Shown piece by piece: positions 46,142 through 64,000 of a DNA stretch of 64,000 nucleotides. Where the stretch lies: the NCBI GenBank assembly GCA_963762565.1, contig CAVXLD010000001.1, positions 864,001 through 928,000 of the forward strand, written 5' to 3'. Each line of letters begins with the position of its first letter. The stretch's first letter is position 1. The position numbers were made by a program, and so were the translations under genes. The notes below the pieces were generated by a model, which worked only from the letters and a program-made list of their open reading frames with translations, ran no database searches and was not told the DNA's origin. This stretch comes from an uncultured Verrucomicrobiae bacterium. GTDB taxonomy: Bacteria; Verrucomicrobiota; Verrucomicrobiia; Chthoniobacterales; JAFAMB01.

Positions 46142-47622
46142 TTAAAACCAACCCTTCAGCCGCGGATATAGTTCTTTGAAGCGGGCGTATGCTCGTTCGT
46201 ACAATTCAACCCGAGCGGCATCTGGTTGAGTGACTTCGTCGAACCGAGGCGCAAAAGATTGGGTTTCTTTAAACCCGCCAAAAACACCAGCGGCGATTCC
46301 GCCTAGAGTCGCGGCGCCGACTCCAGCCCGTTCCGCAGAGTTGGCGTCTTCGCCCCGCAGCAAAGGCCGATTGAGCGTGTCCGCAAGCATCTGGCGCGAC
46401 AACGGGCTAGCCAGTCCGTTTCCGGAAGCCACCCAGCGGTCCATGCGTACGCCGGTTTCTTCTATCGTCTCAATGATCTGGCGCATCGCATAGCTGATCC
46501 CTTCCAAAACCGCCCGGATCAAGTGACCGGTATCGTGCCGGAGGGTAGACCGGCGAAGGTGCCGCGGGCTTGCGGGTCCATCAGGGGCGAGCGTTCACCA
46601 ACCAGATAAGGTAAAAAAAACAATCCTTCCGCACCGATTGGGACTGCTCCGGCCATCTGATCCAATTCTCGATACGAGACTTGATCGCACCGCAGCACCT
46701 GCCGGGCCCATCGAAGCGCCATCCCGGCTGATAGCATTGCGCCCAGCAGATACCAGCGCGAAGGCAGGGCATGACAAAAGGTGTGCAGCCGGCCTTCTGA
46801 ATCAAAAACGGGAGCCGCCAACGGTACAAACACTTGGCCTCCAGTCCCCAGGGTTACCGAACCCTGGCCAGGCTCGATCAATCCATTGCCAACCGCTTGC
46901 GCCGGTTGATCGGCCGAACCAGCAGCAACCGGTATCCCCGGTTCAAGTCCAAGCTCCGCAGCCGGTCCTGGCAACAGTTTGCCGCAAATCGCGGCTGAAT
47001 CACGGGCCTCGGGAAAGATCGTTTTCGGGAGACCTAAGACTTCTATCACCTCCCAAGCCCATGTTCGGCGGGCGACATCAAATAAGCCCGTTGCCGCCGC
47101 GTCGCTAGCATCGGTAGCAACTTCGCCGGTGATCTTGAAGCGGATGTAATCCTTTGGCAGAAGGATTGCGCCGATGTTGTCCAAGCGGGCCGGATCATGT
47201 CGTTGCAACCACCGGAGCGTCGCAATCAGAAACCCCGCAGCAGGCGCAGTTCCGCAGACTTCAGCGAGACGCTTCTTTCCCACAACGGATTCAATCTCCC
47301 CTAACAACGGTCCACTGCGTTGATCTGCCCAAATGATAGCGTTCCCTAACAGCCGGCTTTGTTTGTCTAGAAGCGCGGGCCCGTGCATTTGCCCGGAAAA
47401 ACCGATACCCAGGATTTCCAGGCGACCGGCAGCGTTGAGGGCGGTTCGCACGGCATGCACGGTCGCCGACCACCAATGCTCTGGGTCTTGTTCCGCCCAG
47501 CCTGGTTGAGGCGTCAAAATTGGGTACTCGGCGGATCCCAAACCGAGAATTTTTCCAGCCGTCGAAAAGACGACCACTTTGACACTGGACGTGCCAAGAT
47601 CGATGCCAAGCAGTGAGCTCAT
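46142..47622 (-). pseudogene. xylB: Xylulokinase (FGGY) with a single frameshift near 46547
   Basis: GIDLGTSSVK, FSGQMHG, FLPYLVGERSP; adding one base restores GL-TLRHDTGHLIRAVLEG. Confidence 0.85.
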
Positions 47623-60531: not shown

Positions 60532-61545
60532 TCATACTTCACGTCCAATTGCTTGCGCTACCCCTCGAATTCTGCCGACCAAGTCCTCGAACTCGTTAGG
60601 GAGAAGACATTGTTCACCGTCGCTCTTGGCGAGTTCGGGCGCATTGTGCACCTCAATCATGATAGAATCTGCGCCAGCGGCAACTGCAGCTAAGGCCATT
60701 GCCGGAACAAATTGGCGGACACCGATTCCATGCGTTGGATCAACCACAACGGGTAAATGCGTTTCCGCTTTCAGGACCGGCACCGCATTCAGATCAAGCG
60801 TATTGCGGGTCATGGTCTCGAATGTCCGGATACCGCGTTCGCAAAGCAGGACATTAAAGTTCCCTTCGCTGAGGATATACTCGGCGCTCATCAAAAGATC
60901 TTTAATTGAAGCCGCCATCCCGCGCTTCAACATCACTGGTAGCCTGGTTCTGCCCACCTCACGTAGCAGCGAGAAGTTTTGCATGTTTCGGGCGCCAACC
61001 TGCAGGCAATCAGCGTATTCAGAAACCAGATCCAGATCTTTCGTGTCCATCACCTCTGTGATGATAGGTAATCCCGTTTCCTTGCGCGCTTCAGCCAAGA
61101 GCTGAAGGCCGGCCTTTCCCAAGCCTTGGAAACTGTATGGCGACGTTCGCGGTTTAAAGGCGCCTCCTCGAAGAATCTTGGCGCCGGCTTTGCCAATCGC
61201 TTGAGCAATCGCGATGATCTGATCCTCATTCTCCACCGAGCAGGGTCCCGCCATCAGCACCACCTCTTTTCCACCCACGACGACATCCCCTACTTTTATT
61301 TTAGAGGGCATGCCTCGGAACTCGTACGAAACGAGCTTGTATGGCTTTAGTACGGGCGTCACTGACTCGACGCCGGGAAACGCGCCCAGCGGCTTTTCCC
61401 GGATTTTATCCTCGGGGCCGATAACACCGATCACCACGCGCATTTCGCCGCGGCTGACTTCGGCTCTTAAACCCCAGTCATGGATTCTAGATACGATATG
61501 CTCGATCTGATCTTCGGTAGCATCGGGACGAGTGATAATTATCAT
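60532..61545 (-). CDS. aroF: DAHP synthase, type I-beta with N-terminal regulatory domain
   Basis: [43 protein letters not shown]; start ATG 61545. Confidence 0.95.
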
Positions 61546-61685
61546 TGCGAGGGCTTCGGCAGTCTGCGGCGGATTTACTAGTTCGCAACCCTTTTGGCTG
61601 TTACCCCAGGAAAGAGCGGAGCCGATTTTAGTGTCGGGTGCGAGAGGGTTTGAGAGAAAAGTCGCCATGGCGGGAAGTTGAGTTC

Positions 61686-61731
61686 CAGCTTCTGAGAGGT
61701 TGCGTAGGTACTAATCGCAGCTCAGAAGCTG
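61686..61731 (-). promoter_or_regulatory. Leader hairpin overlapping the leader peptide stop codon
   Basis: CAGCUUCUGAG ... CUCAGAAGCUG, an 11-bp perfect stem; no U-tract follows. Confidence 0.7.
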
Positions 61732-61820
61732 TTTGAGCCCCACCAAAAATAAAAGAAATAGACAGAGGACAACCCAGCGCTAGGCCTTGCAGAAAGGGTT
61801 CGGGTTGAACTCGTATTCAC
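61722..61820 (-). CDS. Aromatic amino-acid leader peptide MNTSSTRTLSARPSAGLSSVYFFYFWWGSNSF
   Basis: GGAGG SD 6 nt before GTG 61820; seven consecutive Tyr/Phe/Trp codons; directly upstream of DAHP synthase. Confidence 0.85.
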   Translation of the reverse strand: MNTSSTRTLSARPSAGLSSVYFFYFWWGSNSF

Positions 61821-61870
61821 GGTGGTCCTCCAGGAATACCGTAATGATCGGCCTTTGCCAAATGAAAAAA

Positions 61871-62385
61871 AACAGGAGCTAGGAGCTAGAATCTAGGAGT
61901 TAGGAGGCGTTCTGCGGCCTGAATCGTTCTCGTCCTCGAAAAGGTTGCACGTTAACAAGGCGTTTTTGTTCCCAACTCCCGGAGGGGAGCCGCTTTGGCG
62001 CGTAGCCCACGATCTCGCGATGTTTCTTTCAGCGCTCAATCCAACCACGAAATGGCGCAACAGGCGGCTCCCGTGAATAACCCAGCGCGATGATTTACCC
62101 GTGGTTCCGATTCGTTTAGACCGGGCCTCAGGGCTGCGAACCGCTGGGTCGTTCCCGGGAGCCGCCTGTTTTTGCACGTTTCGGCCGGATTAATGTTGAG
62201 ACGAATTTCGCGAGGGCGGACAGATTAACGCCAAAGCGGCTCCCGTCCAGGGCGCTGGGTAATGGCGCGGTGCACTAACTGCCACCGCCCATCGAGGACG
62301 AGAACGAGGACGATTTCAATAGAGCCGCGACGCCCCTCCTAGCTCCTAGATTCTAGCTTCTAGCTTCTAGCTTCTAGCTCCTGTT
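61871..62385. repeat. Three-layer nested element: heptamer IR, TCGTCCTCG IR, family A doublet (61979-62251)
   Basis: aacaggagctaggagctagaatctagg / cctagattctagcttctag...ctcctgtt enclosing tcgttctcgtcctcga / tcgaggacgagaacga. Confidence 0.88.
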
Positions 62386-62386
62386 G

Positions 62387-63460
62387 TCACACCCCCAACA
62401 AATCCCTTTGCCAATCCATCAGCACCTTCGTCGCGGATTCCGGCTCGCGGGCCACGGCCTCGAGGATACCTCTCGATGCAACAATAGCTGGATCCAGACT
62501 CAATTCGTTGGAAACCGCATCGCGTTTTGCTCGCAGTCGATCAAGACGCTGTTCTTGTTCCGGGGAAGAACGCAGACGAACGGATTTGGCTCGCTGAGGC
62601 CAACCTGATTCCGGGACTTCCAAGGCGCGCGCGATCGTCTCTTCCAAGCGACGGCGCCTGGAGTGCGGCAACCAAGCCGGCGCTCTCAGCTTATCGCCGG
62701 ATACCGCGTTTTTGGCGAGCTCGATCAATTCCTCGTTCCGCATAATCTGAAAGGTTGGACGATCCACCTTCTGCGCTTCGCTATCGCGCCAGAACCAGAG
62801 CTCACGCAATACCGCCAATCCTCTGGGAGAAAGCGCTGCACTGCCCGAAATCTTCCATACTCGCTCCGGGTCCCGTTCCCGGTCTTCGGCCGTAGCCGCG
62901 ATCGCGCGGTTGCAGGTCTCCTCATACCAAGACCAACGATTGATTTCTCGCAACTGAGCTTCTAGGCGTTCGGCCAGGGGAAGCAGGTATTTTGTGTCGT
63001 TGATCGCGTAGTCGAGCATTACCGGCGTCAAAGGCCTGCGCGCCCAATTTGCCTTTTGCGAAGATTTTGGCAGATCCAGACCAAAAAAACTTTTAACTAG
63101 CGACGCCAACCCAACTTCTTTGATCCCAAGCAATCTCGCCGCCAGATAAGTGTCAAATACTGCGCCCGGCACAAAGCCGGCTCCGCGCCGGAGCATTCGC
63201 AGATCGTAATCGCAGCCATGAAACAGTCCCATGCGCTCCGACAAGAATTGATTGAAGCGTTTAAAATCGATGCCGCTGAGTGGATCGACGATTAAATCCT
63301 GATCGGGAACCGAAAGCTGGATCAGGCAAAGCTTTTCGAAGTAACAATGTAAACTGTCGCCTTCAGTATCAACCGCGATCCGATCGGAAGAACCCTGAGC
63401 ATCACACCATGCATTGAGTTCGTCAGTGCTGGCTAGAATGAAAACCTCTTTTGGGACCAT
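62387..63460 (-). CDS. rnd: Ribonuclease D (DEDD exonuclease plus HRDC)
   Basis: AVDTEGDS, LCLIQ, FDTYLAA, W.RRPL...ML.YA.ND. Confidence 0.9.
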   Translation of the reverse strand: MVPKEVFILASTDELNAWCDAQGSSDRIAVDTEGDSLHCYFEKLCLIQLSVPDQDLIVDPLSGIDFKRFNQFLSERMGLFHGCDYDLRMLRRGAGFVPGAVFDTYLAARLLGIKEVGLASLVKSFFGLDLPKSSQKANWARRPLTPVMLDYAINDTKYLLPLAERLEAQLREINRWSWYEETCNRAIAATAEDRERDPERVWKISGSAALSPRGLAVLRELWFWRDSEAQKVDRPTFQIMRNEELIELAKNAVSGDKLRAPAWLPHSRRRRLEETIARALEVPESGWPQRAKSVRLRSSPEQEQRLDRLRAKRDAVSNELSLDPAIVASRGILEAVAREPESATKVLMDWQRDLLGV

Positions 63461-63493: not shown

Positions 63494-64000
63494 CTAGCGG
63501 AGCGCGGATAGAAGCAGTTCTGCATTTGTCTTCGTGCCTTTAACAGTGTTGAGCAGGACTTCCATCGCCTCGATGGCCGGAAGTTGGGCCAGCTTTTTCC
63601 GAAGGATCGTGATCCGGGCGAACTCGTCCGGGTGATAAAGAAGATCATCCCGCCGGGTGCCAGACTTCAGAATATGAATTGCCGGAAAGATCCTTTTTTC
63701 GAGCAAGGTGCGGTCCAAGTGGAGCTCCATGTTCCCGGTGCCCTTGAACTCCTCGAATATGACTTCATCCATCCGGCTTTCGGTTTCAATCAGTGCTGTC
63801 GCCAGAATAGTGAGGCTACCGCCTTCTTCACAATTACGAGCAGAGCCAAAGAATCGTTTCGGCTTCAATAAAGCCTTGGACTCGACACCGCCGGACATAA
63901 TGCGGCCGCGCCCCGGCTGAAGCGAATTATACCCACGAGCCAGCCTAGTGATGCTATCCAGCAAAATCACGACGTCTTTGCGAAGCTCAACCAGACGCTT
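63494..64000 (-). CDS. rho: Transcription termination factor Rho, C-terminal part (runs off the window)
   Basis: [43 protein letters not shown]. Confidence 0.96.

What the first reader, a model, noticed from the sequence alone, without database searches (positions are those of the whole stretch)
61545..61835. YFFYFWW leader peptide upstream of DAHP synthase: candidate attenuator for all three aromatic amino acids
Seen: SD GGAGG, then GTG 61820 opens a 32-aa ORF (MNTSSTRTLSARPSAGLSSVYFFYFWWGSNSF) too short for the ORF track. It has seven consecutive aromatic codons (2 Tyr, 3 Phe, 2 Trp) and ends 176 nt before aroF, the first step of the shikimate pathway. Known: the trpL and pheL leaders each sense a single amino acid. 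Inference: one leader integrates Tyr, Phe and Trp tRNA charging at the common entry step. I do not know of a description in this lineage, but have not searched.
Basis: partly seen in the sequence, partly recalled or inferred. Interest (0 to 1): 0.82.

Follow-up and report, generated by a model that had tools for sequence, protein, structure and literature searches.

The report
Terminator-less aromatic leader with relay ORF
A short reading frame packed with Tyr, Phe and Trp codons, conserved across a family of likely soil Verrucomicrobia in front of the first enzyme of aromatic amino-acid synthesis, likely lets a stalled ribosome switch that gene on; it lacks the usual terminator and is followed by a hairpin and a second, always-open reading frame predicted to shield the RNA from the termination factor Rho and hand ribosomes to the enzyme gene.

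Summary
The 32-codon ORF (61820-61722, minus strand) with YFFYFWW is real. It recurs before the aroF orthologue in 27 of 39 informative genomes of this Chthoniobacterales-like family. All 27 carry Phe, Tyr and Trp, and the aromatic block is under purifying selection (dN/dS 0.10). Three corrections. GGAGG is not conserved (SD-like in 3 of 27) and abuts a conserved promoter-like motif, so the leader is likely near-leaderless. There is no intrinsic terminator. The 176-nt gap holds a covarying hairpin and a conserved ATG (61668) whose frame runs to aroF (fused in 25 of 27, ending at the aroF start in 2). That second frame is C-rich, weakly constrained as a peptide, and broken in the three leader-deleted loci that keep a remnant. 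Best model (inferred): stalling on aromatic codons keeps the hairpin folded, hiding a Rho-loading tract while ribosomes take over at the second ATG. Aromatic leaders before DAHP synthase are published (C. glutamicum aroR; Acholeplasma motif), and this scan noted many before, including this family (e1-9993523). New variant of a known kind; mechanism untested.

The parts
61856..61861 (-). P1 -35-like hexamer TTGGCA (predicted promoter of the leader)
   Evidence: TTG-x-x-x, 17-18 nt, TA motif found 17-26 nt before the leader start in 25 of 27 loci; not enriched genome-wide
61832..61838 (-). P1 -10-like element, TA-N4-T register
   Evidence: one search list: T at the 7th position in 20 of 25 matches, at the 6th in none; implies a 5' leader of about 5-12 nt (inference)
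61827..61831 (-).
   Evidence: SD-like 4-mer in 3 of 27 leaders; lies right behind the -10-like element
61722..61820 (-). Leader ORF (uORF1), 32 codons, GTG start
   Evidence: 26-32 codons in 27 loci, invariant last Trp
61740..61760 (-). Aromatic codon run YFFYFWW (sensor codons, inferred)
   Evidence: F, Y and W all present in 27 of 27; dN/dS 0.10 versus 0.48 for the leader's N-terminal part
61738..61745 (-). Trp-Trp-Gly codons; predicted to pair with 61668-61675 (bases just before and including the A of ATG2) in ribosome-free RNA; seen in this genus only
   Evidence: not conserved as a switch across the family
61686..61731 (-). Hairpin H, 11-bp outer stem covering the leader stop codon, with inner stem and pyrimidine bulge
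   Evidence: I14; median z -2.8, 22 of 27 below -2; covariation score reached by 1 of 500 shuffles
61629..61688 (-). C-rich, G-poor tract around ATG2 (rut-like, inferred)
   Evidence: C minus G = 17; 0.7% of 1203 control gene starts reach this; profile
61546..61668 (-). ORF2: 41 codons from the conserved ATG 61668, fused in frame to aroF
   Evidence: in frame in 25 of 27 over 8 different lengths; ends at -2 or +4 of the aroF ATG in the other 2; broken in 3 leader-deleted loci
61561..61588 (-). P2: internal promoter-like site TTGCGA-16-CAGACT inside ORF2, likely the older aroF promoter
   Evidence: matching site 42-44 nt before the aroF ATG in 15 of 27 leader loci and in outgroup loci L032, L033
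60532..61545 (-). aroF, type I-beta DAHP synthase (337 aa from ATG 61545; 378 aa from ATG 61668)
   Evidence: NF006421 and TIGR01361 over cut-off; PF18152 + PF00793
62387..63478 (-). rnd (RNase D-like), upstream neighbour in all 26 leader loci where it was in reach
63494..64000 (-). 3' part of rho (transcription termination factor), two genes upstream
   Evidence: NF006886/TIGR00767, E about 1e-78 on the partial protein

Best explanation
This is a conserved aromatic-codon leader ORF before DAHP synthase that likely works as a ribosome-stalling attenuator without an intrinsic terminator, most likely through Rho. Inferred steps: P1 makes a near-leaderless mRNA, and a ribosome translates uORF1. 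When charged Tyr, Phe or Trp tRNA is short, the ribosome would pause in the run, just upstream of hairpin H, which stays folded and hides most of the pyrimidine tract after the stop. A second ribosome would start at ATG 61668, cover the rest of the C-rich tract and run into aroF (fusion, or re-initiation at ATG 61545). When the three are plentiful, the ribosome reaches the stop, melts H and leaves; the bare C-rich RNA would load Rho and end transcription within ORF2. P2 inside ORF2 would give basal, unattenuated aroF.
For: Shown: the leader is conserved in 27 of 39 informative genomes with selection on the aromatic block. H is stable and covaries. Its core lies a fixed 20-23 nt after the last Trp codon in the 26 loci where the anchor was placed correctly, so a ribosome paused on the run spares it (core pair probability above 0.9 in 23 of 27) while one at the stop covers its 5' arm in all 27 (the latter follows from the assumed footprint). 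No hairpin plus U-tract at a shared position, unlike aromatic leaders of Gemmatimonadota and Acidobacteriota loci, which have one. C minus G around ATG2 is in the top 0.7% of control starts, median of 27 loci in the top 4%. ORF2 has no stop in 26 of 27 loci versus 12 of 54 for the other frames; dN/dS 0.55 against 0.05 for aroF. It loses its ATG or frame where the leader is deleted (L019, L122, L123). rho is encoded nearby. Precedent for stalling that favours a Rho-resistant fold: mgtA, corA (PMC12360218, passages).
Against: No experiment and no usable RNA-end data. H also forms in ribosome-free RNA at equilibrium (above 0.9 in 22 of 27), so the OFF state depends on kinetics or on an early competing helix (Trp codon with the post-stop segment) whose stability is unremarkable (median z -0.8; 6 of 27 below -2). 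A C-rich, G-poor tract could simply keep an SD-less start unstructured. 12 family genomes lack the leader. In C. glutamicum a Tyr codon in the leader gave no Tyr response (PMC11802643, passage). The P1 motif is not enriched genome-wide.
Confidence: 0.5

Rival explanations
1. Translational attenuation: the same stall sensor, but the switch is access to ATG 61668. A paused ribosome covers the Trp codons, frees the ORF2 start and lets ORF2 deliver ribosomes to aroF; Rho acts at most as ordinary polarity.
For: In this genus the Trp-Trp-Gly codons pair (8 bp) with the bases before ATG2, as in mycobacterial poly-Cys leaders (10.1101/834739, abstract). Predicted access to ATG2 is higher for a stall at Trp than for a ribosome at the stop in 20 of 27 loci. 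Starts in this genome mostly lack SD (165 of 1203), so structure should matter.
Against: Mean access changes little (0.60 versus 0.58; free 0.59), and no sequestering helix is conserved outside this genus.
Confidence: 0.27
2. The leader senses mainly one input rather than all three amino acids (for example Trp at the invariant last codon, or Phe), or the state of tRNA modification by MiaA/MiaB, which serves codons starting with U.
For: Only the last Trp is invariant. C. glutamicum aroR responds to Phe but not Tyr (PMC11802643, passage). MiaA loss overrides trp attenuation in P. aeruginosa (PMC13434334, abstract).
Against: All 27 leaders keep F, Y and W although their order varies. A pause at any codon of the run spares hairpin H in most loci.
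Confidence: 0.13
3. ORF2 is simply a functional N-terminal extension of AroF, and the leader and hairpin act alone.
For: In frame in 25 of 27; dN/dS 0.55 is below 1.
Against: Out of frame in 2 loci. Lengths of 38-46 codons with little sequence likeness. Absent in leaderless and outgroup enzymes, and broken where the leader is lost. Its one conserved motif coincides with the P2 -35-like site.
Confidence: 0.06
4. Not a regulator: a chance pyrimidine-rich ORF, or an arrest peptide acting through its own residues as TnaC does.
For: T-rich DNA yields Phe/Tyr codons easily; W-R-F recurs at the end of many leaders.
Against: Unique in the genome. Purifying selection on the block with free synonymous change. 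Fixed position before aroF. The Arg codon is CGC in 20 of 22 cases against 26% genome-wide, which points to an RNA constraint, though the loci are kin.
Confidence: 0.04

Closest known systems
Corynebacterium glutamicum aroR-aroF attenuator (Neshat et al. 2014, not seen; passages of PMC11802643 and PMC4046766)
   Same: Short leader with aromatic codons (F-Y-F) before DAHP synthase; ribosome stalling raises expression.
   Different: Here five to seven aromatic codons including Trp, a different phylum and enzyme class (type I-beta), no intrinsic terminator, and a second ORF running into aroF. Sequence homology not tested.
uORFC-13-1 motif of Acholeplasma (PMC8632094, passage)
   Same: Predicted uORF with Phe codon(s) found only upstream of aroF.
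   Different: That motif has an RBS and an intrinsic terminator; this one has neither.
uORF-controlled Rho-dependent attenuators mgtL-mgtA, corL-corA, speFL/orf34-speF (PMC12360218, passages; PMC6386406, abstract)
   Same: Translation speed of a uORF sets an RNA fold that hides or exposes a Rho-loading site; speF orf34 translation also aids downstream translation.
   Different: Different signal (aromatic aminoacyl-tRNAs); a second ORF covering the C-rich tract and fused or coupled to the enzyme was not among the cases in the passages read; Rho dependence untested here.
Mycobacterial poly-Cys leaderless sORF attenuators (10.1101/834739, abstract)
   Same: Leaderless or near-leaderless sensor ORF, no terminator; stalled ribosome blocks a duplex over the downstream start.
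   Different: The start-sequestering duplex is predicted only in this genus, not across the family.
Classical trpL/pheL attenuators of E. coli (PMC11802643, passage; details recalled)
   Same: Cognate codon run; geometry like the 2:3 antiterminator forming during a stall.
   Different: No 3:4 terminator with U-tract.

Membership tests
Classical leader-peptide transcription attenuator (trpL/pheL type) | Short leader ORF with a run of codons for the pathway's products before a biosynthetic gene | tested here: met
Classical leader-peptide transcription attenuator (trpL/pheL type) | Intrinsic terminator (G+C hairpin plus U-tract) after the leader | tested here: not met
   0 terminator-like sites in 61400-62500; no U-tract behind a hairpin at a shared position in 27 loci
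Classical leader-peptide transcription attenuator (trpL/pheL type) | Mutually exclusive 1:2 and 2:3 helices set by ribosome position | tested here: inconclusive
   2:3-like hairpin H strong and covarying; 1:2-like helix predicted in all 27 but median z -0.8
uORF-controlled Rho-dependent attenuator (mgtA/corA type) | C-rich, G-poor rut-like tract after the uORF, and Rho in the genome | tested here: met
   composition only, Rho binding not shown
uORF-controlled Rho-dependent attenuator (mgtA/corA type) | Stalling favours a fold that masks the tract; full translation removes it | tested here: inconclusive
   constrained folding fits, but H also forms in ribosome-free RNA
uORF-controlled Rho-dependent attenuator (mgtA/corA type) | Premature termination that depends on Rho | not testable with these tools
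   only contigs were available, no RNA ends
Leaderless sORF translational attenuator (mycobacterial poly-Cys type) | Sensor codons pair with the downstream initiation region | tested here: inconclusive
   predicted in this genus; no conserved switch over 27 loci
Leaderless sORF translational attenuator (mycobacterial poly-Cys type) | Transcript starts at or next to the sORF start codon | tested here: inconclusive
   promoter-like motif 17-26 nt before the start in 25 of 27, SD in 3 of 27; no start-site data
Any Rfam leader family | Match to a covariance model | tested here: not met
   0 matches at E up to 5 in 61400-62500

The most novel reading that the evidence does not exclude
A two-ORF relay attenuator. 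A tri-aromatic sensor ORF controls, through one hairpin, whether a second ORF with no peptide function of its own gets ribosomes; that ORF exists only to blanket a Rho-loading tract and hand ribosomes to aroF. The cassette was inserted before an older promoter in the ancestor of one Verrucomicrobia family and replaces both the terminator and the Shine-Dalgarno site of classical attenuation.
Probability: 0.4. Interest if true: 0.7.

Novelty: new variant of a known kind. Interest (0 to 1): 0.48.

Why it matters
If right, it shows how bacteria that mostly lack Shine-Dalgarno sites rebuild amino-acid attenuation without a terminator, using a second, sequence-free ORF as a ribosome relay. It predicts that gene callers will give AroF a spurious-looking 40-residue extension that is really a regulatory part. 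It offers a compact test of whether one leader can integrate three amino acids, which the C. glutamicum case did not show. The principle itself (aromatic leader before DAHP synthase) is already published and widespread.

Tried and rejected
Intrinsic terminator: none. Rfam family: none; no Pfam or NCBIfam match for the peptide. SD-led initiation: not conserved. A conserved helix over ATG2: not found. RNAalifold on 20 rows gave only a weak 5-pair helix of the Trp codon with the 3' arm of H (-2.2 kcal/mol), because the stems align poorly. One search counted pairs on a structure string one column off; one search is the corrected count. In one search the anchor was misplaced for L015, so its distance is left out. 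Sigma-54 reading of TTGGCA: the spacing does not fit the recalled consensus (by eye, one search list). Genome-wide enrichment of the P1 motif: not seen for TTGGCA; TTGACA-17-TA had T at position 7 in 0.40 versus 0.07 at position 6 (n=40), a weak hint. RNA data: two soil metatranscriptomes with word shares of 0.10 and 0.08. One 185-nt contig matches 61557-61741 exactly and one matches 61383-61516. Contigs show no ends or levels and the organism was not shown to be in the runs, so I give this no weight. The same design at other amino-acid genes of this genome: not seen at ilvB, cimA-like, trpE, pheA, hisG, lysC or the second aroF; leuA has a different leader. Gene-caller records of the 378-aa form could not be looked up (database unavailable), so how AroF is annotated stays open. 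The careful AroF tree did not finish; only the quick tree was read.

Full report
Observation. On the minus strand, GTG 61820 opens a 32-codon frame with the run YFFYFWW at 61760-61740 and a stop at 61724-61722, 176 nt before ATG 61545. The gene behind it is a DAHP synthase of the T. maritima/B. subtilis type (NF006421 and TIGR01361 over cut-off), with a ferredoxin-like regulatory domain starting exactly at ATG 61545. Among 22 runs of six or more aromatic residues in the six frames of the 6.1-Mb genome, only this one holds all three kinds. The nearest named relatives of the enzyme (76-79% identity) are Chthoniobacteraceae and Chthoniobacterales MAGs, so I take the organism to be a Chthoniobacterales member of Verrucomicrobiota (inference).

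Conservation. The aroF orthologue was found in 40 of 43 genomes of the family. I examined all 40: 27 carry the leader, 12 do not, and one contig gives only 63 nt upstream. The leaders are 26-32 codons long. Their N-terminal halves diverge to about 20-35% identity between genera, while the run keeps Phe, Tyr and Trp in 27 of 27 and always ends in Trp. Over 10 disjoint close pairs, dN/dS is 0.10 for the aromatic block, 0.48 for the N-terminal part and 0.05 for aroF codons 2-39. No such leader was found before the orthologue in 17 loci from other families of the order or in 5 named Chthoniobacterales-type loci (these sets may overlap). In several outgroups rnd abuts aroF. Leaderless family members are scattered among leader-bearing ones on the quick tree and mostly have the rnd-aroF gap shrunk to 15-145 nt, keeping the 3' end of the spacer. 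This fits one gain in the family ancestor and repeated deletion; I did not run a one-clade test.

The Shine-Dalgarno claim. An SD-like 4-mer precedes 3 of 27 leader starts, all in this genus. Instead, TTGGCA-like, 17-18 nt, TA lies 17-26 nt before the start in 25 of 27, and GGAGG begins right after its -10-like part. The leader mRNA is therefore likely to start a few bases before GTG. SD use is low genome-wide (165 of 1203 control starts, against 75 in a control window). The motif was not enriched genome-wide, so P1 rests on conservation alone.

What lies in the 176 nt. (a) Hairpin H, 61686-61731, with an 11-bp perfect outer stem over the stop codon. Folding each homologue alone gives median z -2.8, with 22 of 27 below -2, and pair types that swap on both sides (U-A/C-G, G-C/A-U, C-G/G-C). 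On the MAFFT alignment of 25 of the 27 loci, 79.5% of cells pair, 6 of 11 pairs change on both sides, 1 of 500 shuffles reaches the covariation score, and slid controls fall to 21-42% (relatedness inflates the shuffle test). The central A of the stem lies 20-23 nt after the last Trp codon in 26 of 26 correctly anchored loci, wherever the stop codon falls. (b) No intrinsic terminator. By contrast, aromatic leaders seen in passing before DAHP synthase in Gemmatimonadota and Acidobacteriota loci end in a G+C hairpin with a U-rich tail. (c) An ATG invariant in the alignment, 48-71 nt after the leader stop (61668 here). From it an ORF of 38-46 codons runs to aroF. It is in frame in 25 of 27, over eight different lengths. 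In L023 it ends on the TGA overlapping the aroF ATG, which any shift into that frame would give; in L117 it ends 2 nt before the ATG. For L012 and L020 I took the aligned ATG, not an earlier out-of-frame one. This frame is stop-free in 26 of 27 loci, the other two frames in 12 of 54 cases; its dN/dS is 0.55. In the three leader-deleted loci that keep a long remnant, the ATG or the frame is lost (L019, L122, L123). (d) The 60 nt around that ATG are C-rich and G-poor: C minus G is 17 here, reached by 0.7% of 1203 control starts, with a median of 13 over 27 loci, reached by 4%. (e) A promoter-like site 42-44 nt before ATG 61545 occurs in 15 of 27 leader loci and at the same place in two outgroup loci. 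It likely is the older aroF promoter and explains the one conserved motif in ORF2.

Mechanism. Shown: the parts, their order, fixed spacing and conservation. Inferred: everything dynamic. With a ribosome footprint imposed at the last Trp codon, H forms in 23 of 27 loci; at the stop codon its 5' arm is covered in all 27. That is the geometry of an antiterminator, but the terminator is replaced by a rut-like tract, and rho is encoded two genes upstream. I therefore favour Rho-linked attenuation of the mgtA/corA kind (PMC12360218, passages), with ORF2 as the means to cover the distal tract and bring ribosomes to aroF in the ON state (0.5). Against it: H also forms in ribosome-free RNA (22 of 27), and the early competing helix is weak (median z -0.8), so the OFF state must be kinetic. 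The translational rival (0.27) fits this genus, where the Trp-Trp-Gly codons pair with the bases before ATG 61668, but predicted access to that ATG barely moves across the family (0.60 versus 0.58). That some stall-driven control by aromatic amino acids exists I put at about 0.9; that all three are sensed, at about 0.7.

RNA data. Two metatranscriptome assemblies gave one exact 185-nt contig over 61557-61741 and one over 61383-61516; these carry no weight.

Comparison with what is known. C. glutamicum aroR (F-Y-F) before aroF responds to Phe but not Tyr (PMC11802643 and PMC4046766, passages; the primary paper was not seen). An Acholeplasma uORF motif with a terminator lies before aroF (PMC8632094, passage), and a Shewanella aroF leader RNA was predicted (PMC2659441, passages). 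Terminator-less leaders are known in Actinobacteria (PMC1262725, first third read; 10.1101/834739, abstract; PMC8079986, passages). PMC6386406 and PMC13434334 were seen as abstracts; PMC4833913 and PMC2965389 as passages, with no mention of Verrucomicrobia or aroF. Searches for Verrucomicrobia or Chthoniobacter with leader peptide and attenuation returned 0 papers, as did; searches showed no tri-aromatic or two-ORF case in their listings. The library lacks most subscription journals, and no supplements were read, so an earlier prediction cannot be excluded. This scan's own notes list 330 findings on aromatic leaders before DAHP synthase. One of them, e1-9993523, describes the same terminator-less family and its second frame.

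Verdict. A real, conserved regulatory leader. It fails the membership test for classical attenuators and works most like a uORF-controlled Rho attenuator with an added relay ORF. New variant of a known kind; interest 0.48.

Noticed in passing
window 61871-62385: A roughly 500-nt non-coding element of nested inverted repeats between rnd and P1, with dozens of 66-85% identical copies across the genome (99 matches; arms); MITE- or REP-like.
   Followed up: partly
G000:C12, 92 nt before leuA (L165); L143-L172: A Leu-rich leader ORF with a conserved LLLGSGAP-type motif, no SD and no obvious terminator before leuA in nearly all of 30 family loci; it recalls the actinobacterial LEU element (resemblance only, not tested). 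No in-frame second ORF like ORF2 was evident.
   Followed up: partly
L041, L042, L067, L083, L087, L089, L093, L095 (upstream of DAHP synthase): Aromatic-codon leaders followed by terminator-like hairpins in Gemmatimonadota, Acidobacteriota and an unclassified bacterium.
   Followed up: partly
window 61832-61861 and homologues: The -10-like element reads TA-N4-T (T at the 7th place in 20 of 25, never at the 6th) instead of TAnnnT; possibly a lineage-specific promoter register.
   Followed up: partly
G000:C3:314904-315878: A second DAHP synthase (53% identity) without an aromatic leader.
   Followed up: partly
G000:C1 about 43470 and 46460-46540, C3 about 250850, C8 about 52500: Long poly-T stretches in the assembly, probably read artefacts.
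   Followed up: no
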